IMG/VR virus record: IMGVR_UViG_3300045988_174992
DNA length: 64,000 nucleotides
Origin: a virus
Direction: 5' to 3' (one strand)
Below, piece by piece: positions 1,101-60,640 of this stretch. The position numbers were made by a program, and so were the translations under genes. The notes under the pieces are model-generated. The model did no database searches. It was not told the DNA's origin and saw only the letters and a list, made by a program, of their open reading frames with translations. Every line of letters begins with the position of its first letter. Position 1 is the first letter of the stretch.

Positions 1101-3707
1101 TTATTTGTTTCTTATGATGAATATTGTATTAACATCATTAGAGAGAGAACCGAGACCAGCAAAATCAGTTGTATTACCAGACCAAACATAGCTAAAGTTA
1201 GAGTCACCACCACGTCCGGTGAATTTAGGACTATAATTAGCATTGTAAAGAATACCTTGGGTATATTGCTTGAATTTTTCTTCAACTTTTCTGTTTACTA
1301 TATCATCCATCTGATCTATACTTATGAAATCATTTCTTGTAGAAGCATCACCATCATATATGAAATACAAAGTATTTGGGTCTACTTGTTTGATCTTTAT
1401 ATAATCAGCATATTCACCTTTCCACATATAAGTAGGACCAGTACCATTCAATATAGAAGTAACTATTGGTTTCTTATCTATGAATGCAATACCATCTAAT
1501 GTTGGTGCTCTCTTTATTTCAAAAGCATTTGATCGATCTATATTGTTTGTTCCCCAACCAACTGAGAATAATGTATTATCTGATGATTTATTCCAGTTAC
1601 CAGAAGCATGCTCACCAGGATTTCTTGTTTCAGTACCTAATCCTTCAGCATGAGAATAACTTGCTCCAGTATGGCAATAAGTACCCCATCCTTCTGCATG
1701 ACAGAAATAAGCATAAGCATTATTTGGAGAACCATAAGTATCACCGTAATTATTGAAATATTCTGCACCAGTAAACATTGGCTTTAATACTTCGGGATTT
1801 TCTGGATCATTTATCAATGGATAGAAATTTTTTCTACCAGCAGAATTTCTCATAACATAAGTAACTGTTGCTACCTGTGCTAGTTGTCTTCTAGTAATAC
1901 AGTAAGATGATTCATTGTTTGCAACAGTAGAATAAGGATAGTCTTCTACATAATCCCAAGTGTATATTCCTTTATAAAGATAGCTTATTCCGTTCTCTCT
2001 TACATCTAAAGCATTTGATTCTCCATTAACATCACCATTACCTATCATAAATATGGTGTTTTGCTTTTCTAACTTAGGTGTATCAGTATAAGAACGTGTA
2101 TATCTACCAAAACCAACTTCATAAGGAGATTGTAGTGTTATATTAGAACCATGAGCAAACCCATAAGTTGCATTTTCTTCAACTCTGATGTTATAACCAG
2201 AAACATTGACAAAATCTATTCCTTTTTGATTATTTTCAATGTCTCCACTGTTTATTTCTAATAAACTACCTCTTAAAACAGAATAATTTGCATAACTATT
2301 TATAAATTTTCCATTTACTTCAGAGTATATACCCTTTACACTATTTAAAGTACCATAGATTACTACATTTTCACTGTTTGTATATACAGTATTTTCATTA
2401 CCACCAACATGAACATATTTTGTATCACCTATACTCTTTCCTATTCTATTTGCATATCCTTCTATATGGCTTGTATAGGCATAAGTTAGATGGCCAACAC
2501 CTTCTATGTGAGATTCTTTACCAAAATTATTTGAATCTTTTCCTTCTACATGTGAATTTATAGCATAATTCTTATTATTCAATCCTTCTATATGTGAATA
2601 GTGAGAATTAGTTATTATACCTATATTTCCACCATTTACATTATTATCACCTTCTACATGAGAAGATTTTGAAAATGATATTCTATTGTTTGATCCTTCA
2701 ATATGTGAAGAATCAGACAATGCATTTATTGTATTAGTGTTTCCTTCAGCATGTGCATAAGGAGAATATACTTCAGTTTCAGCCCCTTCAGTATGAGAAT
2801 CCTCTCCTGCAGCTATAGTATGATTTCCTTCTGCATGAGAATTCTTACTTCTAGCTTCTGTATTGTAACCTTCTGAATGAGAATTTTCTCCTGATGCTTT
2901 TGTTATATTGCCTTCTGCATGGGTATTAGTAGATGTTGCTTGAGATTTGTAACCTTCAGCATGGCCATTTTCACCAACAACTAAAGTATTGTTACCTTCT
3001 GAATGGGCATTCTTTGCTCTGACTATTGTATTCAAACCTTCAGCATGTCCATTTTCACCAGTATTTTCTACTATTGTAGTATTTCCTTCAGCATGAGCAT
3101 TCTTTGCACTTATAGTTGTATTGTAACCTTCAGCATGGCTATTTTCAGCTTCAGGTTCTACTTTAGTTATATTACCTTCTGAATGTGATCCTTTGGCTTT
3201 TGCATAAGTATTGTTTCCTTCAGCATGAGAATCTTCTCCTATTGCATAAGTAATGAATCCTTCTGTATGAGAATTTCTGCCTTGTGCTTCAGATTTATCA
3301 CCTTCAGCATGAGAGTTCATTCCTCTAGAATAAGAAGAATTACCTTCAGCATGAGAATTCTCTCCTAATGAATAAGAAGAATTGCCTTCAACATGTCCAT
3401 TAACTCCATTTACAAATGTTTTGTATCCTTCTGCATGAGAATAATTTGATTTAGCAATAGTGCTATATCCTTCTGCATGGGAATATGCACCAAGTGCTAT
3501 ATTATTCTGAAGATCATTGAATATTTCACCATACGATAATGTACCTGGATATACATTACCAAATGGCATACCTTGGTGCCATATAGTACGATGGTTTACA
3601 TCAAATATCAATGAATCCCAATAAGAATATATCATCTTATCAGGAACAAAGCTATCATTTTTATAATCTGTACCGTGTATGTATGTGTAAAAAAGCTTGT
3701 TTGCCAT
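1101..3707 (-). CDS. tail fibre/adhesin with 14-aa xSHAEGxxTxAxG repeats (YadA-head/Hep_Hag-like beta-roll periodicity)
   Basis: 868-aa ORF with about 25 consecutive SHAEG/SHSEG/SHIEG units. Has RSNAFEI and NALDVRENG neck-like motifs and two copies of a YxWxG...NTxxFI C-terminal signature. Confidence 0.75.
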   Translation of the reverse strand: MANKLFYTYIHGTDYKNDSFVPDKMIYSYWDSLIFDVNHRTIWHQGMPFGNVYPGTLSYGEIFNDLQNNIALGAYSHAEGYSTIAKSNYSHAEGYKTFVNGVNGHVEGNSSYSLGENSHAEGNSSYSRGMNSHAEGDKSEAQGRNSHTEGFITYAIGEDSHAEGNNTYAKAKGSHSEGNITKVEPEAENSHAEGYNTTISAKNAHAEGNTTIVENTGENGHAEGLNTIVRAKNAHSEGNNTLVVGENGHAEGYKSQATSTNTHAEGNITKASGENSHSEGYNTEARSKNSHAEGNHTIAAGEDSHTEGAETEVYSPYAHAEGNTNTINALSDSSHIEGSNNRISFSKSSHVEGDNNVNGGNIGIITNSHYSHIEGLNNKNYAINSHVEGKDSNNFGKESHIEGVGHLTYAYTSHIEGYANRIGKSIGDTKYVHVGGNENTVYTNSENVVIYGTLNSVKGIYSEVNGKFINSYANYSVLRGSLLEINSGDIENNQKGIDFVNVSGYNIRVEENATYGFAHGSNITLQSPYEVGFGRYTRSYTDTPKLEKQNTIFMIGNGDVNGESNALDVRENGISYLYKGIYTWDYVEDYPYSTVANNESSYCITRRQLAQVATVTYVMRNSAGRKNFYPLINDPENPEVLKPMFTGAEYFNNYGDTYGSPNNAYAYFCHAEGWGTYCHTGASYSHAEGLGTETRNPGEHASGNWNKSSDNTLFSVGWGTNNIDRSNAFEIKRAPTLDGIAFIDKKPIVTSILNGTGPTYMWKGEYADYIKIKQVDPNTLYFIYDGDASTRNDFISIDQMDDIVNRKVEEKFKQYTQGILYNANYSPKFTGRGGDSNFSYVWSGNTTDFAGLGSLSNDVNTIFIIRNK
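2447..3482 (-). repeat. 42-nt periodic coding repeat array (SHAEG units) in fibre gene
   Basis: catgctgaaggt-type cores (read on the reverse strand) recur every 42 nt. Spurious alternative-frame ORFs arise from the periodicity. Confidence 0.7.
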
Positions 3708-3813: not shown

Positions 3814-4809
3814 TTACATACCTGGCAAACTGTTCAAATCTGTCTTGATATACTTTGCTTTCATTTCCTTATTCAAATCTGGGTTCAATTCTGGATCCAT
3901 TTCTACATTATATGTGATATCCTTCCACTTATCTGGATAAATGAACTTAAGCATATATGTATTCAATTTTGACATTTCATCAAAACCTTCACATTCACTT
4001 GACTTGTTGTTCATAATGGCTTCCAAATCAATCATAGAACGTGTATACATGGCTTTAAGAAGCTGTCTATCATCTTTGAATCTTGGGAACAATTCCGCTA
4101 TAGCAGAAATAGTGCCAAGTCTTGTATCAACCCAATTAGTTCTGATAATAGAATTAGATGCCGCTCTGTAGTTGATTTGTGGAATTGGCATAATAACAAC
4201 TTTATTGCAATTGCTTATCCATACTGGAATTGTTCTTACATCTTCAAATGTTCTTACTGTTGAATAAGGATAGCTTTCCACAATCTTTCTTGTATACATC
4301 TTAGACCAAACATTGAACTTGATGAGATTGTCTTTAAATAAAGCTATCTCCATATCATGAGGATCAGTAAGCACAATCTTCTGTGGAGCCGTAGAATTAG
4401 ATTGCTGTCCATTCTGTTGATTGTATATGACACCATATTCTACAACATCAGCATTTTCAGATGTAATTGTATTGTAAGCATTTTCTACAAAGTCAAGATG
4501 AATATAGTAATCATCTGCATCCAAGAACATGAAATAATTTCCTGTAGCATTTTCAATACCAAACTTACGAGCACCACCACATCCAAGATTATTTTCAGGT
4601 TCTACTAGCTTAAACTTGAAATTATCTTTTGATGTATTGTTTATGATATTCTCAACAATATTTCTAGAATTGTCTTGTGATTTGTCATCTACCAAAACAT
4701 ATTCAATTTCACAACCATCTGGTACTTTCTGACCTAAAACAGAGCCAATAGCATTACCAATAAACGTCTGTGCATTGTAAAATGTTGTTATAATTGATAT
4801 CTTATCCAT
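3814..4809 (-). CDS. family-2 (GT-A) glycosyltransferase
   Basis: ISIITTFYNAQTFIGNAIGSVLGQK..YVLVDDKSQDNS..GCGGARKFGIENATGNYFMFLDADDYY matches the classic GT2 N-terminal signature with DxD. Confidence 0.8.
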   Translation of the reverse strand: MDKISIITTFYNAQTFIGNAIGSVLGQKVPDGCEIEYVLVDDKSQDNSRNIVENIINNTSKDNFKFKLVEPENNLGCGGARKFGIENATGNYFMFLDADDYYIHLDFVENAYNTITSENADVVEYGVIYNQQNGQQSNSTAPQKIVLTDPHDMEIALFKDNLIKFNVWSKMYTRKIVESYPYSTVRTFEDVRTIPVWISNCNKVVIMPIPQINYRAASNSIIRTNWVDTRLGTISAIAELFPRFKDDRQLLKAMYTRSMIDLEAIMNNKSSECEGFDEMSKLNTYMLKFIYPDKWKDITYNVEMDPELNPDLNKEMKAKYIKTDLNSLPGM

Positions 4810-7370: not shown

Positions 7371-7384
7371 TATTTGTTTGACAT

Positions 7385-7417
7385 TATAAATATAGAATAT
7401 ATAAAAAGAATTTCAAA
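7385..7417 (-). promoter_or_regulatory. Bacteroidota-type -33/-7 promoter-like motif (rc: TTTGAAAT-N-TTCTATATTTATA)
   Basis: Member of a 14-site family with plus-strand core ATATAGAA followed by AATTTCAAA. Lies upstream of reverse gene 6948-7370. Confidence 0.5.
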
Positions 7418-7425
7418 TTAATTTT

Positions 7426-7439
7426 GCAATTTTTATATA
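7426..7439 (+). promoter_or_regulatory. GCAATTTTTATATA box (late-type promoter candidate)
   Basis: Same box lies 17-30 nt upstream of the ATGs at 7469, 24519 and 57141. Variants lie before 26464, 35678 and 49654. Confidence 0.4.
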
Positions 7440-7468
7440 TAAAGTTTAAAACAAGAAAATCTTTTCAG

Positions 7469-10400
7469 ATGGCAATATACGTTAAGAAAACTGGCAATCA
7501 AGATATTGGTGCAATAAAATTAGTAGATTCAAAGACAGATAAGCTTAAAGATATAAATGCAGTCTTTTGGAAAAATATGATGATTTGGCCAAGAGATTCA
7601 AAATATCTTTTCTGGAGCTCAAACAACAAAAACCATGATTTCATTTCTATTGATTCTGCTTTTGACAGAAATGGAATACATGTAAGTGCCGCTAGTCATG
7701 TTGTGACAATATACGTCAGATCTTGTGTAAAATACTGGCATGGAAGATACCCATTCAAAGTAGTACCTTATCAGAACTGGGTAACAGCTCCTAATATAGT
7801 ATATCCTATAGGATGGAACATAAAGACAGCTACTAAGCATGAATATGACGCTTTGTTTGATTTGAACATATCTGGTAATGTATCTACTTCAAGTTCTAGA
7901 ACTACTTATGTATCATTATGGCAAATTGACAGTAAAGATGAACATATAGATACTTCTGCATCTAAATATTCTGGAAAGCAAATAGTGATAAAGATAGTTC
8001 AAGATAAAGATGAAGAAGATCCAAATGCACAACCATCTTATGCAAATGCCATAATCACTTGGTATAAAGATGAGACGTTTTCTGATGAAGTAAAAGAATA
8101 TGGTACCGAAAGCAATCCTTATGTAGATGTGAATGGCAAATCTATTTCTCTGTATTGCAACATAACAGGCACAGTAAAGATGATGTCAGGAAACACAGCA
8201 AGATGTTTCTATGGTGACCATTATGGAGATGTAATTACTATAAATGAACTTAACATAGATAAGAATGCAATGTCATTGGAAAGTTCAGAATATCTTGGTG
8301 ATGGAAACTGGAGGATAAATCTGAAAATGAAGAGCAATGTTCCTACTAGTGCTAACTATACAAATGTAATAAGAGATCTTACATTGTCATCCAGTAGAGT
8401 AGACTATACTGGTGATATTGTTACAATGACCTGGAAAGTGTTTAATGAGGCAAATACTTTGACAAGATATTCCAATGTTGGTTTCTTACTTGGCAGAACA
8501 TATACTTCAACTACTAAGGTTTGGCAACAAGGTGGATATGCAAGTAACCAAGTAACTAATGTAACATGTTCTACTTGGGTGTCAAAAGAAGTTGCAAAAT
8601 GGATAAGCATATCAAATCCACAGATAAATTCTGCTACTTCTTCTTATTATGCCAAAGTAACAGTAAATCCACAGACTACTACTGAAAAGATGTATATTGA
8701 AAACATCAGTACATCTTACGATGATGATATAATTCCTGCAACTGATACATTGTTCCAAATAATGTTTATGATATTCAAAAACACAGGTTATTATGCAGGA
8801 AGAAAGGGTATCATAAATGTTACTTGTGTTTCTGATACTAAATCTGTAGAATTGACCCAAACGGAGCATTCTGGTACATCTTTTAATAAAATTACAGATA
8901 GAGATATAGATAAGAAAAAGATATCTATAGCAGGAATAGTTCCTAATTCTTACTATTCAAACATGATAACTAGCATTACAAACTTAAGATATGATTACAA
9001 TTATCTCATGTGGCTAGCTGATGTTTCCGTTACAAGAAATCCTAAAAAAGTTTTGAATCATGAATTGTCAGTCAACTCTTATCCTAAGGCAGTATCATCA
9101 AAATCCCAGTATCTTGAAATAACTTGGTCTATCATAACTGGTGAAGTGAATTCTTCTCCACGTTATGGAAAGATAAAATTCTCTATTCCTGATTACCATT
9201 GTGAAGATTACTATGATGTAACACAAAACGGTTCTACTGATGCACAAGGAGCTAAGTTTGATAAAGACTATTTAAATAATTCAAAACTATATAATATCAG
9301 TGACAATATTGTTTCTTCATCAACAACTAGTGATCCAAATACAAATCCAAATAGTCCTGGAATAATAAAATTAACTGATAATTTTTACACTGGCACTATA
9401 AAGATAAATGAGAATACTAAACATAATAATACAGTTGCATATATAAAACCAACAGAAATAACTGATTGGTCAGTTTCTGATTTTGACAATTACAACAATG
9501 CTGCATTCTATATAAGGATAAAAGGAAAGAATGTATATATTGGTATTGACAGAAATGTAAAGATAAAGTTGGAAATTACTGGAATAGGTTCAAAAGAAGA
9601 TACTATATTGCAAGAGAAAGCACCATCTGTAGACAGTAATACTTTAGCCAATGTAACAGATTTAGATGTTTCTTCTATTAAGATATCCGGTGAAGCAACA
9701 ACAAACAAATTACCTTATCTTATAACAAATGAAATGTACTGTGTACCTATCATACTGAATAAGAATGCTGTACCTACAAGATATGATTATGCCGTTGTTG
9801 TTGGTTCAAAAGAATATCCTGGATCATTTGATTATGGAGATTATGGTGATATTAATCTTACACCAGAAGATTCAACAGAATATTCAATACCTAACTATGA
9901 CAACATGTATACAGCTGTAACTTCTTGGTGGAGAAGACAAGGAGAAGAAAAGACAAGAACAGTAATATTATCTGTTGATGGAATAACCCAATCTATTACA
10001 AATACATGGACTGGTATAAAATATCAAGGAGACCAGACTTACAGATCTAATTTGTCAGAAGATTATTCTCTAACATTATCTGACTACAACCAACAATGGA
10101 TATCATTGAACCAAAATAATTTGATTTCTTCTTCTAACAGTACTTCTAGTACAAGAAGAATAGGTTTGACAGATACTCTATATCTTGATGATTTAAAACA
10201 GAAGAATCTGAAATTGTCTTTAAAGCAAGAACCAAGAGGAACCAGTACGAATTTCTTGTTTTCTTCTTCATTAGAATATGGAACTATAAAATATCTGAAT
10301 GCTACTGATAGTGCTTCATTCATGATATATAGTTTAGATGATGACTTAATGAAACCATTAGATATAAGTTGGACACCTACTGAGTTCAACAACATGATAT

Positions 10401-11428
10401 TGAGTTGTACTCATAATGATTACTGGTATAGCTTTACTATTGCTCCAACATCTTTGAATATATCTAATACAAACAGAACTTGGCAAGTAAGCTTTACCCA
10501 AGCAATTTCAGGCAAGAATATTTCATTAACATTTGTACAACATTGCTATCAATTCTCTTTAGATAAGACTTCTATAAACATTACTCCAAATGTTGAAGTT
10601 GAAATAAATGTAACATCTACAAAGAGTGGAAACTTCTTTGGTTTCACTTGGGATGCATTACCGAATTGGTTGATGGTATATAGAACATCTGATACTAAGC
10701 TTACATTCAAATGTATTGAGATAAATGATTCTACAAAAACAAGATCGTGTACAATAAGATTTACCCAATATGAATCTGGTATATCTACAACTCTTACAAT
10801 ATCTGAAGAATCTTGGAGAAATCCAGAACTTGATGAAAGTACAGTAAATTTATATTATAAAGGAGCAAAATCAGTAAAGGAGTTGTATTCTGATCAAGCA
10901 GGTATTGGATTACCAATAACAATAAGGCAAAGTGATGGTACTCTTAATTCAACAAAGATAAAAATAACTTCAAGAAACATATCTGATTCTAGATATACTA
11001 TAGATATTGTATCTTTAGTAGATTTAGAAGGAACTATTCCATTATTTGGAAGATATTCATTATCTAACAAAAACCAATATCTTGGAGAAATCTATTGCAT
11101 TATGCATGCTTATCAATTCAGTTGTTCTTCTGACAATACTTCTGAAATAGTTTGGACTTTAAGTCCTAAAGCAAATGAACTATGGTCTATGTATTATGTT
11201 ACATCAATAATTGATGGTGAATTTGCAGATTATGAAATTTCTGAAGCCAATGGTAATTTTACTTGCTATCATAGTGGAGTTAACATTACTATACTTCCAA
11301 AATTCACTAACTACAGTAATGAAAGAAAAAATTGGTCCTTGAAATTAAAACAAAATAAGACTAAGAAAGAAATATTTGTCAAAGTACAACAATTAGGTGC
11401 TAATGAATATGAAGAGGTGTATATATAA
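7469..11428 (+). CDS. large virion-associated protein with repeated BACON/Ig-like modules
   Basis: 1319 aa from ATG 7469 (the track start 7424 is a TTG). At least six modules end in ..R/K.x.I.F.Q-type strands, e.g. TRSCTIRFTQYESGISTTLTISE, WQVSFTQAISGKNISLTFVQ, INVTCVSDTKSVELTQ. Confidence 0.5.
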   Translation: MAIYVKKTGNQDIGAIKLVDSKTDKLKDINAVFWKNMMIWPRDSKYLFWSSNNKNHDFISIDSAFDRNGIHVSAASHVVTIYVRSCVKYWHGRYPFKVVPYQNWVTAPNIVYPIGWNIKTATKHEYDALFDLNISGNVSTSSSRTTYVSLWQIDSKDEHIDTSASKYSGKQIVIKIVQDKDEEDPNAQPSYANAIITWYKDETFSDEVKEYGTESNPYVDVNGKSISLYCNITGTVKMMSGNTARCFYGDHYGDVITINELNIDKNAMSLESSEYLGDGNWRINLKMKSNVPTSANYTNVIRDLTLSSSRVDYTGDIVTMTWKVFNEANTLTRYSNVGFLLGRTYTSTTKVWQQGGYASNQVTNVTCSTWVSKEVAKWISISNPQINSATSSYYAKVTVNPQTTTEKMYIENISTSYDDDIIPATDTLFQIMFMIFKNTGYYAGRKGIINVTCVSDTKSVELTQTEHSGTSFNKITDRDIDKKKISIAGIVPNSYYSNMITSITNLRYDYNYLMWLADVSVTRNPKKVLNHELSVNSYPKAVSSKSQYLEITWSIITGEVNSSPRYGKIKFSIPDYHCEDYYDVTQNGSTDAQGAKFDKDYLNNSKLYNISDNIVSSSTTSDPNTNPNSPGIIKLTDNFYTGTIKINENTKHNNTVAYIKPTEITDWSVSDFDNYNNAAFYIRIKGKNVYIGIDRNVKIKLEITGIGSKEDTILQEKAPSVDSNTLANVTDLDVSSIKISGEATTNKLPYLITNEMYCVPIILNKNAVPTRYDYAVVVGSKEYPGSFDYGDYGDINLTPEDSTEYSIPNYDNMYTAVTSWWRRQGEEKTRTVILSVDGITQSITNTWTGIKYQGDQTYRSNLSEDYSLTLSDYNQQWISLNQNNLISSSNSTSSTRRIGLTDTLYLDDLKQKNLKLSLKQEPRGTSTNFLFSSSLEYGTIKYLNATDSASFMIYSLDDDLMKPLDISWTPTEFNNMILSCTHNDYWYSFTIAPTSLNISNTNRTWQVSFTQAISGKNISLTFVQHCYQFSLDKTSINITPNVEVEINVTSTKSGNFFGFTWDALPNWLMVYRTSDTKLTFKCIEINDSTKTRSCTIRFTQYESGISTTLTISEESWRNPELDESTVNLYYKGAKSVKELYSDQAGIGLPITIRQSDGTLNSTKIKITSRNISDSRYTIDIVSLVDLEGTIPLFGRYSLSNKNQYLGEIYCIMHAYQFSCSSDNTSEIVWTLSPKANELWSMYYVTSIIDGEFADYEISEANGNFTCYHSGVNITILPKFTNYSNERKNWSLKLKQNKTKKEIFVKVQQLGANEYEEVYI

Positions 11429-11436: not shown

Positions 11437-11480
11437 GTCCCTAGGAAAGCGCCTGGGACGTTCAGGAAGCGGAAAATGGT
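11437..11480 (+). repeat. GC-rich 3'-end element, copy E1
   Basis: GTCCCTAGGAAAGCGCCTGGGACGTTCAGGAAGCGGAAAATGGT aligns with the reverse-strand copies at 47346-47392 and 56045-56087. Confidence 0.6.
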
Positions 11481-11512
11481 CGAGAGATATAATTTATCAG
11501 CTCGACCATTTT
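11473..11512. terminator. bidirectional intrinsic terminator
   Basis: Perfect 12-bp stem aaaatggtcgag/ctcgaccatttt with A/T runs on both sides, between convergent genes. Confidence 0.7.
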
Positions 11513-11537
11513 TAATTGTTCCTGGTGATGTTTTTAT

Positions 11538-12005
11538 TTAAATTATTTCTATAGTGATATTTTCACCTCTACTTTTGCTTGCAATCTTCATCTTATTGTA
11601 AAGGTCTTTAAAGTAATTAGTAGAATTGCTTACCCATCCTACTTTATCATTTTTTCCTGGAATGATACAACCTTCTGTATCCGATGCAGAATTGCCTGGA
11701 TGTATCAATACACCATCATAACCAGGTACATTCAGTAATCTAGGCATATATGCTTGACAGAACTGCATCATTGTCTTAGATTTCTTATACTTAGGACTTT
11801 GTACATTCAATACAATTTCATAAGTACCAGTAGGAATTGCAGTGATTCCAGGTTTTTTCATGAACAGGATCTTTTCTTTAGTCATATTTTGATTAAGACC
11901 TCTGTCTTTATCTTCTATTGTATTAGAAAAGAATACACCATCCACATAAAGCTGTCCAATAGTATATCCTTCTTTCTTCCATTTTCTTACTAGTTTGAGT
12001 TTCAT
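11538..12005 (-). CDS. DUF5675/YkuD-like (L,D-transpeptidase-fold) cell-wall enzyme candidate
   Basis: YDGVLIHPGNSASDTEGCIIPGKN matches the H..G....S/T.GC active-site pattern of the YkuD fold. Confidence 0.5.
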   Translation of the reverse strand: MKLKLVRKWKKEGYTIGQLYVDGVFFSNTIEDKDRGLNQNMTKEKILFMKKPGITAIPTGTYEIVLNVQSPKYKKSKTMMQFCQAYMPRLLNVPGYDGVLIHPGNSASDTEGCIIPGKNDKVGWVSNSTNYFKDLYNKMKIASKSRGENITIEII

Positions 12006-13521: not shown

Positions 13522-13537
13522 TAATATTTTAACAATC

Positions 13538-13568
13538 AAAATATAGAACAACCTTTATAAATTTCAAA
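13538..13568 (-). promoter_or_regulatory. -33/-7 promoter-like motif
   Basis: Plus strand reads aaaatatagaacaacctttataaatttcaaag. Its rc gives TTTGAAAT..GTTCTATATTTT upstream of 13521. Confidence 0.5.
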
Positions 13569-13584
13569 GAAATTTTATAATATT

Positions 13585-15795: not shown

Positions 15796-15862
15796 TTTAA
15801 ATTATTAATATTTTATTGACATGTATAATATAGAAACAATCTAAAAAATTTCAAATAAAATT
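15771..15862 (-). repeat. duplicated promoter/5'UTR/start-codon cassette, copy 1
   Basis: About 92 nt, more than 90% identical to 16236-16331. Contains TTGACATGTATAATATAGAAACAA.CTAAAAAATTTCAAATAAAAT. Confidence 0.8.
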
Positions 15863-15864
15863 GA

Positions 15865-16260
15865 TTAAAGTGAACAAAATAAATCAATATTAAATGATTC
15901 AACTTTCTTAGATCTTGTAAAGAGAACTTCAAACATTGTATATTCTGTAGGGCGATCTTCAAACATAATGTAATCTGCAACATATACATAGTTCTTCTTT
16001 CCTTTTGGCATGATTTCTACCTTTTCTACTTTGTTATCAATAAATGGATGAAGAACCTTAACGCGAACTGAAGCACCAGTAGGAATATGTTTAAATACAG
16101 CAACTTCATTTTGATAAGTATCAAGCTTAAACTCATTTACTTTGATTGAAGTTGTATAAAATGTATTGTCAATATCAAAGTGTTTCTTGATATAAGACTT
16201 ACCATTAGAAACTGCTTTAACCAACTCGCTGAAAGAAATATTTGTTGTATTCATAATCAT
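15865..16260 (-). CDS. hypothetical protein
   Basis: 131-aa ORF behind copy 2 of the cassette. Confidence 0.55.
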   Translation of the reverse strand: MIMNTTNISFSELVKAVSNGKSYIKKHFDIDNTFYTTSIKVNEFKLDTYQNEVAVFKHIPTGASVRVKVLHPFIDNKVEKVEIMPKGKKNYVYVADYIMFEDRPTEYTMFEVLFTRSKKVESFNIDLFCSL

Positions 16261-16331
16261 AATAATTTTAAATGTTATTTATTTATTTGACATGTATAAT
16301 ATAGAAACAAACTAAAAAATTTCAAATAAAA
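16236..16331 (-). repeat. duplicated promoter/5'UTR/start-codon cassette, copy 2
   Basis: See 15771-15862. Confidence 0.8.
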
Positions 16332-16367
16332 TGTGAATTTTTAATAATAAAGTTACTATTTTATATT

Positions 16368-21278: not shown

Positions 21279-21466
21279 TAAAAAGATTTAAAATTTAAAG
21301 GGTTAATAAATAATTTAAGTACAGCATTAACTTTAGTTCTTGAATAGAACTGAAAGTGATATTCATTAATTACTTGTACATATTTAATATAGTATTTGAT
21401 TATATGAAAGTTCAGTAATATTATGTTAATGATTGTTAAATCAACTAAGACAAATTAAGAGACAAG

Positions 21467-23843: not shown

Positions 23844-23876
23844 ATTACTCTTTATTTTATTTGTTAATTAATACAA

Positions 23877-23911
23877 ATATAATATAGAACATTCGTAAAT
23901 TATTTCAAATA
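23877..23911 (-). promoter_or_regulatory. -33/-7 promoter-like motif
   Basis: atataatatagaacattcgtaaattatttcaaat. Its rc is ATTTGAAAT-N-GTTCTATATTATAT. Confidence 0.5.
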
Positions 23912-23933
23912 TTTATTCTAATCTCTTAATATG

Positions 23934-38600: not shown

Positions 38601-38971
38601 GTTTCCATATAAATACAGATGGTACTATTGGATATACAGGATGGACACAAGGATTTAAATATACAAATAATGAAAGTACTGTAACATTATCATATACACA
38701 TTATACAGGAAATGATAGCAGTATAAATATACCAGTATTGAATGATGGTAATACTATTAACCAAGGATCTGCTAATGCTTCTAAGGCTGGTATAGTTACA
38801 GCAGATCAATATAATAAGATTGTTTCTAGATTGACTTACCTTGAAAAATGGTGTATGTGGCAATCTGGATTACCTAACAACAAGTCTACTTATATTTGGT
38901 CAGGTACATTAGCACAATTTAATTCATTGACATCCAAACCAGAAAATACAACATTTATCATATCAAATTAA
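35678..38971 (+). CDS. tail fibre/adhesin with SHAEG repeats followed by NSxAxG (Hep_Hag-like) repeats
   Basis: 1097 aa. About 24 near-identical SHAEGxxTTASGxx units are followed by GVNSIALVSGTASGSNSIAFTG...-type units, then DTNRKNAFWISQ, ending TYIWSGTLAQFNSLTSKPENTTFIISN. Confidence 0.8.
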   Translation: MAVKPIGTTALTWGSLLGRGNREPIDATQLNYSYTDLLWELNQRTVSYQIGTNNGGSGNYYVGLITAVPYVNEDDKRKDSHYTVDANGNKKLETINMKGPWYVSYKGTDKGRGTAKNKYGFVPDGNPNTYYADRIVLKQEMDYTLDNGFVRKTQLGTYYTGVGHWYDSYTKSKTYANGLECPDGVYFPTTSYAEIFNNYTYNVATGIFSHAEGGSTTASGHSSHAEGGGTTASGHSSHAEGNNTTSSGGSSHAEGKNTKASGNESHAEGENTTASGGGSHAEGISTQSIGQSSHAEGTLSYAGGNESHAEGNNTKANGDSSHAEGGSTTASAHYSHAEGYSTTASGDFSHAEGGDTTASGDHSHAEGYYTKASGSCSHAEGTGTTASGDYSHAEGHYAKASGDYSHAEGHYAEASEDYSHAEGGSTTASGYYSHAEGIGTTASGYYSHAEGSGTTASGYYSHAEGDSTKATGFRSHAEGTGTTASGDHSHAEGALTTASAHYSHAEGYSTYVHSTAENSHAEGFGSYTNGLNAHAENSSYANGKNSHSGGEATADGVNSFAHGVKGTLASGVNSIALVSGTASGSNSIAFTGTASGNSSISLDGTASGSNSVSIQGTAKSTDSVAIGQGAIAETGQGAMALIKGHATGQQSLATNTSSASGTNSVAMNVSSASNTQSFAVNNSTASGINSASTNKGNASGENSISTNISTATGVNSAALNNGNASGEGSVAMNYSQATGKGSVAIGLNTIASGEYSLSHGHETRISGNYSVGLGQGIKVSSNTNVSTGKFNKDEASYFAVGIGISDTNRKNAFWISQGTTAGTNGVSYFSNNTYVYGNTYDPSQYPNNKEDKSWSVAVTYNMYRNSYTYLYNTIDDKFATFGTGTYFTHSIDGLTYTPTTNVFHWKTQIFDKDNNIWPKQSYSFTFTQANHTNAGVMSAEDKRRLDSIKGFTYDNGNTHEYNFNENHTKGDNLHSFHINTDGTIGYTGWTQGFKYTNNESTVTLSYTHYTGNDSSINIPVLNDGNTINQGSANASKAGIVTADQYNKIVSRLTYLEKWCMWQSGLPNNKSTYIWSGTLAQFNSLTSKPENTTFIISN
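36296..37313 (+). repeat. near-perfect 42-bp tandem coding repeats
   Basis: Example: tcacatgctgaaggtgg.agtactacggcaagtggacattct repeated with 1-2 mismatches. Generates spurious ORFs in other frames. Confidence 0.85.
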
Positions 38972-47262: not shown

Positions 47263-47345
47263 AAGTTATAGTTCAATAGATGTTGAACAAAAATGTTCAC
47301 ACAGGGACGTTAAAATTATCTTAGCTGATAGAATATACTTCAGTA

Positions 47346-47392
47346 TACTTTTACGCTCCCTGTGTGACCCAGGCACTTTATAGGGGAACTTA
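47346..47392 (-). repeat. GC-rich 3'-end element, copy E2
   Basis: rc reads GTTCCCCTATAAAGTGCCTGGGTCACACAGGGAGCGTAAAAGTA. Confidence 0.6.
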
Positions 47393-47783: not shown

Positions 47784-47840
47784 TATTAATATTTAAATTA
47801 AACTTCTTGTTTTGAATTATTTGTTATTTATTTGAACGAA

Positions 47841-47874
47841 TCTAATATAGAACAAACATAAAAAATTTCAAAAA
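47841..47874 (-). promoter_or_regulatory. -33/-7 promoter-like motif
   Basis: rc reads TTTTTGAAATTTTTTATGTTTGTTCTATATTAGA, with TTTG and TATATTAG separated by 19 nt. Confidence 0.55.
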
Positions 47875-47915
47875 CTTATTATTATTTATAAAGCTTATAT
47901 AAATAAAAATCTATA

Positions 47916-53191: not shown

Positions 53192-55985
53192 AGAATTTGA
53201 ATTTGACCCAGTAAAGAGAGATAAAGGAGGAAAAGAGGCAGAAGCGGTCATCTGGAGCTGCTCAGTACTTGAAAAGGCTGTAGATGCCATGAAGAAGGGT
53301 TTGCCATTGAAAGCAAACCCTTTTATTGGTAAGAATACTAAGTTATTGAAGCCAGATCTGGTCTTCAAGCGTACACAAGAAGAGATAGAAGACTATATGC
53401 ATTGTATGGAAGATCCATTGTACTTTGCTACTAAATGCTATCTTATGACTCCAACTGGTTTGCAACCAGTAATACTTCGTGACTATCAGGAAGATTATAT
53501 GAGGCATCTTCAGAAAAACAGATTCAGTTTGTTCTTGAGTTGCAGACAAAGTGGTAAAACATTTTTAGAAAATACAAATGTGAAATTTTTGTTTACTAAT
53601 TCATTCATAAACAATTATAGCATTAAGTTTGGTAAACAAAAATTTACATATCTCTTTAAGAATTTCAAATATGTAAAAAGTGGATCTGATTATTTGTTTG
53701 AATTGCCTTTTTATGAGTTTCAAAACTTGTTTGATGATACTGTTTACTGGAAACTGAAATACAATCTATATAAGAAAAAGAAATATCATGCAGTAGAAGT
53801 TGTCGACTGGTTAGAATACAATTTTTTATTCCACAAGAAACTTCTTGACAATTACAAAACAACTAAAGAAATAGATATTTCCAATTATGGAATAAAAGTA
53901 TTGACAGATGTTGGATATCAACCAATATCATACATTTACAATACTAAACCATTTGCAATATATAAAGTAATCCTTGAAAATGGATATTCTATAGAATGTG
54001 CAGACAAGCACATGTTGTTTGATGATAATTTGAATATAGTATATGCTGATGAACTTGTTGAAAGTGTTTCTAAAATAATGACAGATAAAGGACCATCTGT
54101 AGTAAAGTCTGTTTCAATATCCAAAGTAAAAGTATCTATGTGTGATGTTTCTGTGGATCATCCTTATCACAGATATTATACTAATGGAATATTAAGTCAC
54201 AACTCAACAACAACAGCTATATTCTGCCTTTGGTCGGTATTGTTCAGAAATGATAGAAATGCGTTGATACTTTCTAAATCTGGTCCAGCTGGACAAGATT
54301 TGATAAAGAAGATAAAAGATATGTACTTGTATCTTCCTTATCATTTGAAGCTTGGTACTTTGAAGTGGAATCAATCAGAAATAGCTTTTGACAACAACTC
54401 TACAATATCTACTGAAGCTTTCTCTCCTACTGCCGGTCTTGGTAAGACAATAAACTTCTTGATACTTGATGAGTTTGCTTGGTGCCCACCTAATGATGTA
54501 GAATTATTCTACAACAACATTCTTCCTACTGTTACTGCAGATACAAGCTCTAATATATGTATCATGTCAACACAGAACGGATTCAATTTGTTCTATAAGC
54601 TATGGCATGCCGCAGAAACAGGAAAGTCTATGTATGCTCCATTTAAAGTAGATTGGTGGCAAGTTCCTCAATGGGATCCAGAAAATCATATTTGGAAGAA
54701 GAGAGATAATGCTTGGAAAACTATGATGGTTGGTGTCTTAGGTTCTGAAGAAGCTTTCTACTACCAATACGGTACTCAATTCTCTGCATCAGATAAATGT
54801 CTTGTATCAAGAGAATGCTTAGGTAAGATAAGAGATTTGACTTATCTGTTTGAGACACCTACAGATGATAGTTGGTATTTCAGCTTACATAAGACAGAAC
54901 TTAAGTTCAAGAAAGATTATGACTTGCATTGGTTGAAGATAGGATGGTTCATCATATTGGTTGACTTAGCAGAAGGTGGTGGCAATGACTTTACAACGTT
55001 CAATATAATAGAAGTAATAGGAAAAGACAAGTTTGAACAAGTAGGATATTGGCATTGCAACACCATAGATTTGGAACAAGCTAGCTTAGAGTTTTGGGTA
55101 TTGTATGGACAGCTATTCAATCCTAATAAGACTATAGTGTCAGTAGAATGGAATACTTATGGGGCTTTATTCTACAACTATCTTAAGAATTTGAATGAAC
55201 CTGAATATATGCCAGAAGCAAGTTGGAGATGGCAAGTAAACCCATTAGGAGAATTTGACTTGGCTAACTTGATAAGATATAAGAAAGGCAGTCAAGAAGA
55301 CAATATTGCTAACTTGAATGGATTCAAAAACAGCAAGACAATTCCTGGAATCAGATTAAGCCATGCTACTAAGATATCTGCATGTGCATTGCTTAAGATG
55401 ATGTTAGAGAAGTTTGATGTCATAATAACAGATTTGCTTACCGTTTCAGAGCTTGAGAATTTTGAAGATAAGAATGGAAATGGCAGCTATGCCGCGGCAT
55501 ACGGACATGATGATTTGATAATGACTTTTGTACAACTTCCACTTCTTAAGAACACTACAAAATATAAAGATTTCATAGAAGAATGGGAGATAGAAATGAA
55601 AGCTACAGGTCAATGGGAACAAATAGAAAAAGAAGAGTCAGAAATGAAGAAACTAGATATGCTTAAGAAGATAGCAGATATGATGGCCAATGTATTGCAG
55701 AAAAGAAAAGAAGAGAAACAAGTAACTGTATCATTGAACAACAGAAATCTACCTACTGCTACTGCTGTAAATTCTTCTGATATATATAGAGAAGCACAAA
55801 GTAATGCAAGTACCAGTATACCTAACATGTATACAATGTACAATACAAGTATGCAACAAGGATTACCATCTATGAATGACTTTTATGGGTCACCTAATGG
55901 ATATGGAAATGAACCAAGCATATATGATATGCCAGGACAATACAACCAAGATCCATTGAGAGCTAGATTCAGACAATTCAACTAA
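53184..55985 (+). CDS. terL: terminase large subunit, T4 gp17-like, interrupted by Hint/intein-like insertion
   Basis: DYQEDYM..LSCRQSGK|..|STTTAIFCLW (T4: RDYQRDML..LSRQLGKTTVVAIFLAH); WNQSEIAFDNNSTI..LILDEFAW (T4: WNKGSIELDNGSSI..IYIDECAF); STQNGFNLFYKLW; YGHDDLIMTFV (T4: GYHDDLVMSLV). Confidence 0.9.
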   Translation: MAKEFEFDPVKRDKGGKEAEAVIWSCSVLEKAVDAMKKGLPLKANPFIGKNTKLLKPDLVFKRTQEEIEDYMHCMEDPLYFATKCYLMTPTGLQPVILRDYQEDYMRHLQKNRFSLFLSCRQSGKTFLENTNVKFLFTNSFINNYSIKFGKQKFTYLFKNFKYVKSGSDYLFELPFYEFQNLFDDTVYWKLKYNLYKKKKYHAVEVVDWLEYNFLFHKKLLDNYKTTKEIDISNYGIKVLTDVGYQPISYIYNTKPFAIYKVILENGYSIECADKHMLFDDNLNIVYADELVESVSKIMTDKGPSVVKSVSISKVKVSMCDVSVDHPYHRYYTNGILSHNSTTTAIFCLWSVLFRNDRNALILSKSGPAGQDLIKKIKDMYLYLPYHLKLGTLKWNQSEIAFDNNSTISTEAFSPTAGLGKTINFLILDEFAWCPPNDVELFYNNILPTVTADTSSNICIMSTQNGFNLFYKLWHAAETGKSMYAPFKVDWWQVPQWDPENHIWKKRDNAWKTMMVGVLGSEEAFYYQYGTQFSASDKCLVSRECLGKIRDLTYLFETPTDDSWYFSLHKTELKFKKDYDLHWLKIGWFIILVDLAEGGGNDFTTFNIIEVIGKDKFEQVGYWHCNTIDLEQASLEFWVLYGQLFNPNKTIVSVEWNTYGALFYNYLKNLNEPEYMPEASWRWQVNPLGEFDLANLIRYKKGSQEDNIANLNGFKNSKTIPGIRLSHATKISACALLKMMLEKFDVIITDLLTVSELENFEDKNGNGSYAAAYGHDDLIMTFVQLPLLKNTTKYKDFIEEWEIEMKATGQWEQIEKEESEMKKLDMLKKIADMMANVLQKRKEEKQVTVSLNNRNLPTATAVNSSDIYREAQSNASTSIPNMYTMYNTSMQQGLPSMNDFYGSPNGYGNEPSIYDMPGQYNQDPLRARFRQFN
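53559..54203 (+). mobile_element. intein-like (Hint domain) insertion in the terL Walker A loop, 215 aa
   Basis: Lies between GK and STTT. Starts TFLENTNV (block A CLxxDTxV with Thr in place of Cys). Block B-like AIYKVILENGYSIECADKHMLF, block F-like MCDVSVDHPYHRYY, block G NGILSHN followed by +1 Ser. Confidence 0.7.
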
Positions 55986-55993
55986 TTAAAACA

Positions 55994-56085
55994 TTCACCA
56001 GGATGGCGGATAATTCAATCACCTGATAAATTATACTTATTAGCAATTATCCGCTCCCTGCGCATCCCAGCCGCCATCCTGGTGA
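55994..56085. terminator. long bidirectional hairpin between terL and 56040-56483
   Basis: caccaggatggcggataatt pairs with aattatccgc[17-nt bulge]cgccatcctggtg. Confidence 0.6.
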
Positions 56086-56483
56086 TTGCTTTGCTTATTC
56101 ATTACATCTAATATCTTATTGTATTCTTCATCTGTAACATTTATGATAATATCATCATTTGTTCCAAATTTTCCATCAGAACCAGGAAGTTTATGTTCAT
56201 ATTTTTCTGACCACACTTTTGTCAAACCAACAGAAGTGAAAACAGCTGCTACTGCTGTTATATAAGCTGCCATTGCTGTCAAATCCGTAGTTATGGTATG
56301 ATTATACCAAGCTTCTATAGTAAGAGAGAATATTGGTACAGCAAGCAGTAAAGTACCAATGAATGTAACAACAACTAAAAAGAAACTTTTGCTGCTATAT
56401 CCTGAATTTTGCTGAACAAGCTTACTGAAGAAATTTCCTTTTACTATTTTCTTTATATATACGGTCATTTTAGAAAAGTCCAT
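56040..56483 (-). CDS. two-TM membrane protein
   Basis: TM segments FFLVVVTFIGTLLLAVPIFSL and AMAAYITAVAAVFTSVGL. The last 15 codons are supplied by GC-rich element E3. Confidence 0.55.
   Translation of the reverse strand: MDFSKMTVYIKKIVKGNFFSKLVQQNSGYSSKSFFLVVVTFIGTLLLAVPIFSLTIEAWYNHTITTDLTAMAAYITAVAAVFTSVGLTKVWSEKYEHKLPGSDGKFGTNDDIIINVTDEEYNKILDVMNKQSNHQDGGWDAQGADNC
56045..56087 (-). repeat. GC-rich 3'-end element, copy E3
   Basis: rc reads AATCACCAGGATGGCGGCTGGGATGCGCAGGGAGCGGATAATTG. Confidence 0.6.
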
Positions 56484-60557: not shown

Positions 60558-60568
60558 AATTTTATTAG

Positions 60569-60640
60569 TAGCCGCAGCGAGAATCGAACTCGCCTTGACA
60601 GATCGAAAATCTGTAGTACTAACCACTATACGATACGGCC
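60569..60640 (-). tRNA. tRNA-Glu(UUC)
   Basis: Acceptor GGCCGTA/TGCGGCT, anticodon arm ACAGA[TTTTCGA]TCTGT, T arm GCGAG[TTCGATT]CTCGC. Confidence 0.85.

What the first reader, a model, noticed from the sequence alone, without database searches (positions are those of the whole stretch)
11437..11526. Family of GC-rich, roughly 40-nt elements placed just after stop codons (E1; also E2 at 47346-47392 and E3 at 56045-56087)
In a genome that is about 70% A+T, three loci carry a conserved GC-rich sequence, always in the sense orientation of the gene that ends there.
- E1 core: GCGCCTGGGACGTTCAGGAAGCGGAAAAT
- E2 core: GTGCCTGGGTCACACAGGGAGCGTAAAAG
- E3 core: GCGGCTGGGATGCGCAGGGAGCGGATAAT
- Consensus: G.G.CTGGG....CAGG.AGCG.A.AA; similarity extends about 12 nt further 5' (CCCTAGGAAA / CCCCTATAAA / CACCAGGATG).
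Each core can form a small CTG...CAG hairpin and is embedded as a bulge inside a larger terminator-like hairpin. In E1 the outer pairing is CCtAGGAA/TTCCTGG and the inner 12-bp stem is 11473-11512. A weaker fourth copy may lie at 63038-63082 (rc AGCGCGGATGAAGGAAGCCAAAC). Conservation is at the sequence level while the flanking stems differ. That points to a protein- or RNA-recognised signal, such as a termination or processing site or a stability element, or to a miniature mobile insertion that targets terminators.
Basis: seen in the sequence. Interest (0 to 1): 0.7.

Follow-up and report, generated by a model that had tools for sequence, protein, structure and literature searches.

The report
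Conserved terminator-like hairpin repeat in jumbo phage
The three GC-rich spots are copies of a roughly 100-base structured repeat found about a dozen times per genome in one lineage of uncultivated gut jumbo phages, and it most likely ends transcripts at gene boundaries while carrying an unexplained invariant sequence module.

Summary
E1, E2 and E3 are the only three copies in the window; the proposed fourth copy is not one. Each is part of a roughly 100-nt element, not 40 nt. It has four parts:
- a sequence-invariant GC-rich 5' module (CCAGG-N6-CCTGGG-TCAC);
- a long hairpin whose stem covaries;
- an A/T apical motif (TATAWTYTAT) exactly 30 nt after CTGGG;
- a T-run.

Close relatives carry it at about 16 conserved loci. 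These are eight 166-294 kb IMG/VR contigs, plus contigs mis-binned as 'Romboutsia' MAGs. Two more diverged clades have their own versions, with entirely different but still complementary stems.

Copies never lie inside genes or in divergent promoter regions. Four loci are convergent, about eight are tandem-sense and three are antisense, so 'always sense' fails. The sense strand folds better and G-U outnumbers A-C. A T-run follows 86% of copies, and a phage promoter often comes next.

Best reading: a lineage-specific intrinsic-terminator or 3'-end hairpin cassette, conceptually like the PeSL elements of T4-type phages. I found no evidence of mobility and no Rfam match. What reads the invariant module is unknown. 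Moderately interesting.

The parts
11437..11535 (+). E1, whole element (class II: the 5' arm pairs with the 3' arm and the GC core sits inside)
   Evidence: CM 83.7 bits; fold -41.7 kcal/mol, z -5.85; lies between the convergent genes 7424-11428(+) and 11538-12005(-)
11441..11457 (+). E1 invariant 5' module: CTAGG-AAAGCG-CCTGGG (small hairpin P1 with a U-G wobble)
   Evidence: alignment A1 columns 9-25; P1 pairs CG/UG, never compensated
11473..11512 (+). E1 inner 12-bp stem AAAATGGTCGAG/CTCGACCATTTT enclosing the apical motif TATAATTTATCA (11488-11499)
   Evidence: motif columns 56-67 are at least 90% conserved
11518..11539 (+). E1 3' arm GTTCCTGGTGA followed by the T-run TGTTTTTATTT
47289..47388 (-). 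E2, whole element (class I: the core's 3' half TCACACAGGGAGCG pairs with CGTCCCTGTGTGA)
   Evidence: CM 105.9 bits; fold z -3.38; starts 9 nt after the stop of 47397-47783(-) and ends 31 nt before the ATG of 45958-47262(-)
47326..47337 (-). E2 apical motif TATATTCTATCA
   Evidence: A1 columns 56-67
47297..47316 (-). E2 3' strand of the long hairpin (pairs with 47347-47367); T-run at 47289-47296
55985..56086 (-). E3, whole element (class II: 15-bp outer stem TCACCAGGATGGCGG/CCGCCATCCTGGTGA with the GC core as an insert)
   Evidence: CM 79.1 bits; fold z -4.73; lies between the convergent genes 56040-56483(-) and TerL 53184-55985(+)
56040..56042 (-). Stop codon of ORF 56040-56483, inside E3 (the last 15 codons are element sequence)
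   Evidence: in clade 2 the orthologous ORF stops just before the element
47829..47885 (-). Promoter-family copy (TTTGAAAT...TTCTATATTAG on the minus strand) that starts the transcription unit ended or attenuated by E2
   Evidence: repeat family D10; profile of 129 instances

Best explanation
E1-E3 belong to a lineage-specific family of roughly 100-nt, strand-specific structured repeats. They most likely act at the RNA level as Rho-independent terminators and 3'-end-protecting hairpins at the ends of transcription units.

**Proposed mechanism**
- As the polymerase leaves a gene it transcribes a GC-rich 5' module, then a long hairpin. The 3' arm of that hairpin pairs either with the core's 3' half (class I, as in E2) or with the far 5' arm (class II, as in E1 and E3).
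- In both architectures the hairpin closes 2-4 nt before a U-run.
- In tandem gene arrays the element is often followed within 13-67 nt by the phage's own promoter. The pair then insulates neighbouring units, in the way PeSL terminator/promoter cassettes are proposed to do in T4-type phages.
- Where no promoter follows (E2 has only 31 nt before the next ATG), termination must be leaky or regulated.

**Shown versus inferred**
- Shown: family membership, placement, fold, covariation, strand asymmetry, T-run, promoter adjacency, orthologous stability.
- Inferred: that termination actually happens, and that the invariant CCAGG-N6-CCTGGG-TCAC module and the apical UAUAWUYUAU motif are read by a specific, unidentified factor.
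- Also inferred: similarity among copies is kept up by descent plus occasional exchange between loci.
For: **Family size and spread**
- 66 distinct copies occur in eight 166-294 kb relatives with 95-99% TerL identity.
- 7-13 copies are seen per genome in the 58-94 kb held of each.
- There are 16 loci.

**Placement**
- Copies are never inside genes and never in divergent regions. Loci split into 4 convergent, about 8 tandem-sense and 3 antisense.
- Distant TerL relatives (57-62% identity) have plain A/T-rich hairpins at the position E3 occupies.

**Structure**
- 77.5% of cells are paired, against 25-52% for slid controls.
- Across three clades, 17 of 23 pairs carry compensatory changes, including all 11 of the basal stem. 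The covariation score is 0.256, against 0.06-0.11 for controls.
- The clade 2 stem CGCTGGCGGCC/GGCCGCCAGCG replaces TCACACAGGGA/TCCCTGTGTGA.

**RNA strand**
- The sense strand folds better in 52 of 66 copies.
- G-U pairs number 135 against 48 A-C.

**Terminator and promoter signals**
- At least 5 T in 8 within the 12-nt tail occurs in 86% of copies, against 19% in background. TTTT occurs in 68% against 6.5%.
- A promoter follows on the same strand in 20 of 90 distinct flanks, with 2.4 expected and 0 on the opposite strand.

**Stability of position**
- Inner-region identity is 0.89 between orthologs and 0.63 between paralogs.
Against: - There are no transcript data, so termination is not demonstrated.
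- Three of about 16 loci are antisense inside operons, where a terminator in that orientation has no obvious job.
- The U-run starts 2-4 nt after the stem and is weak in clade 2 (AAATTT).
- The phage also uses ordinary, non-conserved hairpin terminators elsewhere. The special module is therefore not needed for termination as such.
- E2 sits 31 nt upstream of the next start codon with no promoter in between.
- The invariant module and the fixed 30-nt spacing to the apical motif are not explained by a plain terminator.
- The covariation count uses a model-fitted alignment.
- Most copies were collected with patterns that fix the core, so the core's invariance is partly an artefact of how they were found.
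Confidence: 0.5

Rival explanations
1. Regulated attenuator. The invariant core (GCGCCUGGG-N5-CAGGNAGCG) forms a small hairpin that overlaps the 5' strand of the terminator in class I copies. A phage or host RNA-binding factor that stabilises it would allow read-through into downstream genes, giving a temporal switch. Class II copies at convergent junctions would keep terminating, because there the core is only an insert.
For: - RNAalifold finds exactly this small hairpin as the only structure common to all copies.
- All 8 tandem-sense loci are class I. Of the 4 convergent loci, only L046 keeps the class I B:C pairing, and its C arm is truncated; the other three pair the 5' arm with the 3' arm.
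- E2 and the L003 locus lie 29-31 nt from the next start codon with no promoter between, so some read-through is required.
- Sequence, not pairing, is conserved in this module.
Against: - No candidate antiterminator appears among 48 window proteins or the neighbouring genes.
- The link between class and context could reflect shared ancestry of element-plus-promoter cassettes.
- The clade 2 core differs (CGCTGGGCGCCGCTGG).
- Known protein-binding antiterminator hairpins sit in 5' leaders, not at gene ends.
Confidence: 0.2
2. Selfish or neutral DNA repeat of the MITE, REP or ERIC type. It would spread by transposition or recombination, lodge where insertions are tolerated (gene 3' ends), and look like a terminator only incidentally.
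For: - It has terminal inverted repeats (ATTCACCAGGA...TCCTGGTGAAT), is about 100 bp long, is multi-copy, occurs in both orientations, and is only intergenic.
- Partial or degenerate copies and extra 5'-arm fragments exist.
- In 14 of 69 copies the nearest relative of the inner segment lies at another locus.
- An indel of a 116-aa gene begins exactly at an element's 3' end.
- A second small hairpin repeat of 39 nt varies in copy number beside the element.
Against: - No empty site was found among 8-9 genomes, and no target-site duplication at any boundary choice.
- Loci are orthologous, including across the clade with 75% TerL identity.
- No transposase lies next to any copy.
- Strand-asymmetric G-U pairs and a conserved T-run point to selection on the RNA.
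Confidence: 0.12
3. Double-stranded DNA site. Repeated half-sites (TCACCAGGA-like motifs: two direct, one or two inverted, about 21 bp apart) plus the A/T box would bind a phage DNA-binding protein. The role could be genome organisation, replication or recombination, or module exchange as proposed for PeSLs.
For: - Direct and inverted copies of one roughly 10-nt motif occur within each element.
- The spacing between CTGGG and the TATA box is fixed at 30 nt in all clades.
- Copies are spread every 10-30 kb.
- An indel boundary lies at the element's edge.
Against: - Different copies within one genome keep pairing with different stem sequences (E1 versus E2 versus E3). That argues for base pairing rather than half-site recognition.
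- G-U exceeds A-C, and the sense strand folds better than the antisense strand.
- The T-run lies on one side only.
Confidence: 0.08
4. Trans-acting RNA. Each copy would be a small RNA or decoy, for example a solitary CRISPR-repeat mimic or a sponge for a host RNA-binding protein, made from 3' UTRs.
For: - It has a compact stable fold with its own U-tail, a multi-copy conserved GC-rich 29-nt segment with a short hairpin, and CAGGAUG/CAGGAAG motifs.
Against: - No promoter of the phage's family lies upstream (5 of 90, with 2.4 expected).
- No arrays of the motif appeared in the viral, genome or metagenome scans. Apart from a few chance matches, the hits are copies in this phage lineage.
- The probable host phylum (no Shine-Dalgarno sequences, -33/-7 promoters) is not known to use CsrA (my own knowledge).
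Confidence: 0.05

Closest known systems
PeSL (promoter-early stem-loop) cassettes of T4-type phages (Arbiol et al. 2010, PMC2839356; Comeau et al. 2014, PMC4122927)
   Same: - Both are conserved, repeated regulatory cassettes at gene boundaries of large T4-like myophages (the window has a gp20-type portal).
- Both combine a stem-loop with terminator character and a conserved promoter just downstream. Here that holds for 20 of 90 distinct flanks.
- Both are associated with indel boundaries.
- In both, consensus sequences are clade-specific.
   Different: - PeSL stems are short and simple (GN-loop-CN, A3-4G3...C3T3-4) and are defined together with a sigma-70-like promoter, a Shine-Dalgarno sequence and a start codon.
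- Here the stem-loop part alone is about 100 nt, with an invariant GC module and an apical motif.
- It also occurs alone at convergent junctions (E1, E3) and in antisense orientation.
- None of the three window copies has the promoter part.
- The promoters are of the -33/-7 type and lack a Shine-Dalgarno sequence.
Rho-independent (intrinsic) terminators
   Same: - A GC-rich stem base, a U-run after the stem, and placement after genes.
- Ordinary bidirectional hairpins occupy the same junction in distant relatives.
   Different: - Intrinsic terminators are not conserved in sequence between loci.
- Here a 17-20-nt module and a loop motif are nearly invariant across about 16 loci and three clades.
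- The hairpin is 70-95 nt long with internal loops.
- The U-run is offset by 2-4 nt.
Bacterial intergenic repeats that fold in mRNA (REP/BIME, ERIC, Correia/nemis); comparison from my own knowledge
   Same: - Imperfect palindromes of about 35-150 bp in transcribed intergenic regions at gene 3' ends.
- They occur in either orientation and affect termination or mRNA stability.
   Different: - Those families are chromosomal and number hundreds of copies.
- Several have known mobilising enzymes or target duplications.
- None of that is seen here, and the host replicon is a phage.
RNase III processing sites of phage T7 (R0.3-R18.5); comparison from my own knowledge
   Same: - About ten intergenic hairpins per genome.
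- They have upper and lower stems, an internal loop, and shared sequence.
- They leave a protective 3' hairpin on the upstream mRNA.
   Different: - T7 sites lack a U-run.
- They are all co-oriented with transcription.
- Cleavage at the E elements is untested.

Membership tests
Intrinsic terminator | Stable GC-rich stem-loop in the transcript | tested here: met
   MFE -29 to -42 kcal/mol, z -3.4 to -5.9; covarying stem
Intrinsic terminator | U-tract directly after the stem | tested here: met
   86% of 65 copies have at least 5 T in 8 within 12 nt, against 19% in background; the offset of 2-4 nt is a weakness
Intrinsic terminator | Lies downstream of a gene, co-oriented with it | tested here: inconclusive
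   About 8 tandem-sense loci and 4 convergent loci, but 3 antisense loci
Intrinsic terminator | Transcript 3' ends map to the U-tract | not testable with these tools
   No RNA data available
PeSL | Stem-loop immediately upstream of a conserved promoter, ribosome-binding site and start codon | tested here: not met
   None of E1, E2 or E3 is followed by the promoter motif. In relatives 20 of 90 flanks are. The genes have no Shine-Dalgarno sequence
PeSL | Sits at indel or replacement boundaries between close relatives | tested here: inconclusive
   One clean case (L024 versus L017) and flank variation at the E1 and E2 loci; not surveyed genome-wide
PeSL | Recombination between copies (mini-circles) | not testable with these tools
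   Needs PCR on infected cells
MITE / REP-like mobile repeat | Presence/absence polymorphism at otherwise identical sites | tested here: not met
   No empty site among the flank pairs. Only DNA around copies was held, so the test is partial
MITE / REP-like mobile repeat | Target-site duplication | tested here: not met
   At most 2 of 16 loci share even a 3-mer at any boundary choice
MITE / REP-like mobile repeat | Cognate transposase (RAYT, TnpA or DDE) in the genome | tested here: inconclusive
   None lies next to any copy. The window holds one protein with a TnsA-like endonuclease domain, whose position was not pinned down. Full genomes were not held
Any Rfam family | Covariance-model score at or near the gathering threshold | tested here: not met
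   Only tRNAs pass. E1, E2 and E3 give only sub-threshold generic-hairpin hits
Promoter of this phage (TTTGAAAY...TTCTATATTWT family) | Match of the apical TATA motif to the -7 box profile | tested here: not met
   Best PWM score per element is -1.0, against background -2.2 +/- 4.6 and true promoters at 14.6
Solitary CRISPR-repeat RNA (RNA anti-CRISPR) | Core matches a CRISPR repeat found in arrays in a host | tested here: inconclusive
   No locus carries more than two matches and no arrays were seen. The genome scan pattern was restrictive
Integron attC | R''/R' boxes (RYYYAAC...GTTRRRY) at the ends, in arrays of cassettes | tested here: not met
   The ends are RTTCNCC...GTGAAY, and copies lie 10-30 kb apart

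The most novel reading that the evidence does not exclude
The invariant GC module plus the apical A/U motif is the docking site of a dedicated phage (or host) factor. That factor would convert a dozen terminators per genome into conditional ones. Class I copies in tandem arrays would be opened for read-through, because the core hairpin competes with the terminator stem. Class II copies at convergent junctions would stay closed. This would be a terminator-embedded, genome-wide temporal switch in a jumbo phage that probably infects Bacteroidota. It would differ from lambda N/nut, Q/qut, put RNA and RAT/ANTAR leaders, all of which act from promoter-proximal or leader sites.
Probability: 0.2. Interest if true: 0.75.

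Novelty: new variant of a known kind. Interest (0 to 1): 0.5.

Why it matters
- Gene-expression signals of uncultivated gut jumbo phages are almost unknown. This family, together with the promoter family noticed beside it, gives a first map of transcription-unit boundaries for one such lineage.
- It provides a ready-made covariance model for annotating relatives.
- It is a compact candidate part (a strong terminator in an A/T-rich, Bacteroidota-type context) for engineering.
- If the invariant module proves to be read by a specific factor, it would reveal a new way of regulating termination. If instead it drives exchange between loci, it would extend the PeSL idea of regulatory cassettes as recombination joints beyond phages of enterobacteria and vibrios.

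Tried and rejected
- **Known RNA family:** Rfam gave nothing, at gathering thresholds over the whole window or in E-value mode on each element.
- **Fourth copy at 63038-63082:** rejected.
- **Coding explanation for the core:** the reading frame relative to the upstream stop differs between E1 and E3/L046-type copies, and variation is not 3-periodic (read).
- **Promoter nested in the hairpin loop:** the apical motif does not score against the phage's own promoter profile, and there is no -33 TTTG at the right distance.
- **Independent small-RNA gene:** no upstream promoter enrichment.
- **Invertible switch:** no copy has the loop in the opposite orientation, and a 60-70-bp segment is probably too short (my own knowledge).
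- **CCWGG (Dcm/EcoRII-type) site clustering:** only 5 of the 52 sites in the window lie in elements.
- **Chi-like reading of AGCGG/GAAGCGG, and CsrA-type GGA sites:** recalled resemblances only; the probable host phylum argues against them and nothing could be tested.
- **Firmicute ('Romboutsia') host:** the MAG contigs are the phage itself. In addition, 41 of 43 genes lack a Shine-Dalgarno sequence and the promoters are of the -33/-7 type.
- **crAss-like identity:** suggested by weak nucleotide hits, dropped after the portal and TerL searches.
- **First viral-contig pattern scan:** it also returned about 50 chance matches in GC-rich contigs, which were discarded by composition.

Full report
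**What is in the window**

The pattern CTGGGN5CAGGNAGCG hits only 11453-11471(+), 47354-47372(-) and 56052-56070(-). Shuffles predict 0.10 hits.

Reading the flanks shows that each core is the 5' part of a longer unit of about 100 nt:
- a 5' arm (TTCNCC-AGGA);
- GCG-CCTGGG;
- a second arm (TCACACAGGGAGCGG in E2);
- an A-rich/T-rich inner stem;
- an apical A/T box (TATAATTTATCA or TATATTCTATCA);
- a 3' arm ending in ...CCTG(G/T)GTGA;
- a T-run.

In E2 the 3' arm pairs with the second arm; I call this class I. In E1 and E3 it pairs with the far 5' arm, and the GC core is an insert in a very long stem; I call this class II. All three fold far better than shuffled sequence, with z-scores of -5.9, -3.4 and -4.7.

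E1 and E3 lie between convergent genes. E3 overlaps the last 15 codons of ORF 56040-56483(-) and faces the 3' end of the large terminase gene. E2 lies between two minus-strand genes, 9 nt after one stop codon and 31 nt before the next ATG.

**How many copies, and where else**

A profile search and a covariance model built from relatives both find exactly three copies in the window. The model was run over the whole window with filters off. It scores the three copies at 79-106 bits, and the next independent hit at 9.7 bits. The suggested fourth copy at 63038-63082 is not detected. It has no comparable fold and no Rfam match.

A pattern scan of IMG/VR and a search for terminase relatives converge on the same eight contigs of 166-294 kb from one metagenome, with TerL 95-99% identical. 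These contigs carry 66 distinct copies. In the 58-94 kb held from each genome there are 7-13 copies, spaced roughly 10-30 kb apart on both strands. By their flanks, the copies fall into 16 loci.

The only bacterial 'genome' hits are contigs of two MAGs labelled Romboutsia. These carry the same phage loci, so they are mis-binned phage DNA.

Two further clades have their own versions:
- Contigs of IMG 3300001525 (TerL 75% identical) carry GCCGCCAGGAGTCGCTGGGCGCCGCTGGCGGCCGCGAAAT...TATAAATTATAT...GGCCGCCAGCG plus a T-rich tail.
- A group of ENA metagenome contigs forms the third clade.

One human-gut contig also carries an E3-type copy. More distant terminase relatives (57-62% identity) have ordinary A/T-rich hairpins at the junction E3 occupies.

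**Anatomy and what is conserved**

The alignment of 65 copies is essentially gapless. Some invariance of the core is imposed by the search patterns. Columns that no pattern fixed are nevertheless at least 90% conserved: TTC-C at the 5' edge, GA-A after the core, T-A-T-A-.-T-.-.-A-T-.-A in the apex, TT.T in the descending strand, and GTGA at the 3' edge.

For a class I structure, 77.5% of cells form standard pairs, against 25-52% when the partners are slid. On an alignment spanning the three clades, 17 of 23 pairs show changes on both sides, including all 11 pairs of the basal stem. The covariation score is 0.256, against 0.06-0.11 for slid controls. That alignment is model-fitted, which inflates the numbers.

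The plainest evidence can be read directly from the sequences. The clade 1 stem TCACACAGGGA/TCCCTGTGTGA is replaced by CGCTGGCGGCC/GGCCGCCAGCG in every clade 2 copy. Meanwhile CCAGGA, CTGGG, GCG(G)AAAT and the TATAAWTTAT box stay put, and the box lies exactly 30 nt after CTGGG in all clades.

The small 5' hairpin (CCAGG-N6-CCTGG) varies only by C-to-U changes opposite G. It is never compensated, and some copies, including E2, cannot form it at all. Its 3' half is therefore conserved as sequence rather than as a helix.

**RNA or DNA, and which strand**

- The element's own strand folds more stably than its complement in 52 of 66 copies, with means of -31.4 and -28.3 kcal/mol.
- Across the modelled pairs, G-U outnumbers A-C by 135 to 48.
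- The T-run lies on one side only. 86% of copies have at least 5 T in 8 within the 12-nt tail, against 19% of background windows. TTTT occurs in 68% against 6.5%.
- Different copies within one genome keep pairing with different stem sequences.

These points favour a transcript structure read in the element's orientation over a duplex protein-binding site. The copies are related to one another, so none of these counts is a probability.

**Context**

No copy lies inside a gene or in a divergent intergenic region. Four loci are convergent and about eight are tandem with the element in sense. Three are tandem with the element antisense to an uninterrupted run of genes.

While looking for other repeats I found a promoter-like family with six copies in the window. 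On the gene strand it reads TTTGAAAY-N~12-TTGTTCTATATTWTAT, and there are 129 instances in the relatives held. In addition, 41 of 43 window genes lack a Shine-Dalgarno sequence. Both features are what I know of Bacteroidota expression signals. The portal's best matches, at about 33% identity, include jumbo phages of Tenacibaculum, Chryseobacterium and Prevotella (Bacteroidota) as well as Sphingomonas phage PAU. The host is therefore probably a member of that phylum, not Romboutsia.

The element is followed by such a promoter on the same strand, within 13-67 nt, in 20 of 90 distinct flanks. About 2.4 would be expected by chance, and none occur on the opposite strand. The element's own apical box does not score as a promoter. 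One promoter copy, at 47829-47885, starts the unit that E2 closes.

**Mobility**

- I found no empty site when pairing left and right flanks across all held DNA.
- There is no target-site duplication at any choice of boundaries.
- No transposase lies next to any copy. The neighbouring genes include a topoisomerase II subunit A and the terminase; most others have no recognised domain.
- Orthologous copies are 89% identical in the inner region and paralogs 63%. In 52 of 69 cases the nearest relative is the ortholog. In 14 cases it lies at another locus, so some exchange between loci occurs.
- One indel of a 116-aa gene begins exactly at an element's 3' end.
- A separate 39-nt hairpin repeat varies from 0 to 6 copies beside the element.

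The family is thus positionally stable, with signs of recombination at its edges. It does not look like a recently active transposon.

**Interpretation**

The best-supported reading is a lineage-specific cassette that forms a Rho-independent terminator and 3'-end hairpin, often paired with a downstream promoter. This is the same idea as the PeSL terminator/promoter cassettes described in T4-type phages (PMC2839356, PMC4122927). It is not a member of that family as defined:
- the window copies lack the promoter part;
- the stem-loop is ten times larger;
- it carries an invariant GC module and an apical motif;
- it also occurs alone and in antisense orientation.

A plain terminator does not explain three things: the sequence-level constancy of CCAGG-N6-CCTGGG-TCAC, the apical box at fixed spacing while the stems turn over, and the placement of E2 31 nt before a gene that has no promoter of its own.

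A more ambitious reading would account for these. The core hairpin, which is the only structure RNAalifold finds in all copies, competes with the terminator stem in class I copies but not in class II. A factor binding it would then make tandem-array terminators conditional. All eight tandem-sense loci are class I. Only one of the four convergent loci (L046) keeps that pairing, in truncated form; the others pair the 5' arm with the 3' arm. This association may instead simply reflect shared ancestry of cassettes. No candidate factor was found among the proteins examined.

**Verdict**

Several details needed correction.
The terminator-like, sequence-recognised signal is plausible; the mobile-insertion idea is not supported.
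- The element is absent from Rfam, and I found no description of it in the literature searched.
- I rate it a new variant of a known kind, of moderate interest, with a minority chance of being a new type of regulated terminator.

Noticed in passing
window 21329-21367; L115 1255-1490 (minus strand); L002 around 4150-4400: A second small repeat: a 39-nt hairpin unit, AACTTTAGTTCTTGAACAGAACTGAAAGAGATGTTCATT. It occurs as 1-6 tandem copies beside the main element in relatives. The window has a single copy, and lacks the copy that relatives carry right after E1 (the junction is flanked by GTGA). Its tandem 39-nt period recalls type III antitoxin RNA arrays, but nothing supports that yet; Rfam gave no match.
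   Followed up: partly
window 7374-7430, 13525-13581, 15812-15868, 16283-16339, 23866-23922, 47829-47885: A conserved promoter-like family upstream of minus-strand genes. On the gene strand it reads TTTGAAAY-N~12-TTGTTCTATATTWTAT. There are 129 instances in the relatives held. It looks like a Bacteroidota-type -33/-7 promoter.
   Followed up: partly
window, starts of 43 long ORFs: 41 of 43 genes have no Shine-Dalgarno-like sequence in the 20 nt upstream. This points to a Bacteroidota-type host, despite related contigs being binned into 'Romboutsia sp.' MAGs (CALESE01, CALFLM01) in GTDB.
   Followed up: partly
window 1101-3707(-), 31713-35591(+), 35678-38971(+): Long runs of 42-nt (14-codon) coding repeats (...CATGCTGAAGGT...) inside three very large ORFs, presumably fibre or adhesin proteins. 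There is a weak YadA-head and tail-tip Pfam signal.
   Followed up: no
window 53184-55985; L126 4001-7991: The large terminase is 933 aa here. Distant relatives match the same residues within about 1.8 kb, and one close relative (contig 167773) has about 1.2 kb more inside the gene. This suggests inteins, introns or homing-endonuclease insertions.
   Followed up: no
window 60565-60643 and 60759-60836: Two near-identical tRNA-like genes (86-95% identical). ARAGORN calls the second one 'tRNA-???' with an odd anticodon loop. In total, 17 tRNA genes are clustered at 58-64 kb.
   Followed up: no
It is not a copy, has no significant fold (z -0.26), and matches no Rfam family or tRNA. It remains unexplained.
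   Followed up: yes
window, ORF not pinned down: One of the 48 window proteins scanned carries a TnsA-like endonuclease N-terminal domain (Pfam E = 1.7e-14). It is not adjacent to E1, E2 or E3.
   Followed up: no
L010, L016, L099 and L120, about 20 nt upstream of the element: Some loci carry an extra partial 5' piece (ATTCACTAGG-TATACACAGG) in front of the element. It can pair with the element's 5' arm, giving four alternately complementary segments in a row, like an attenuator.
   Followed up: no
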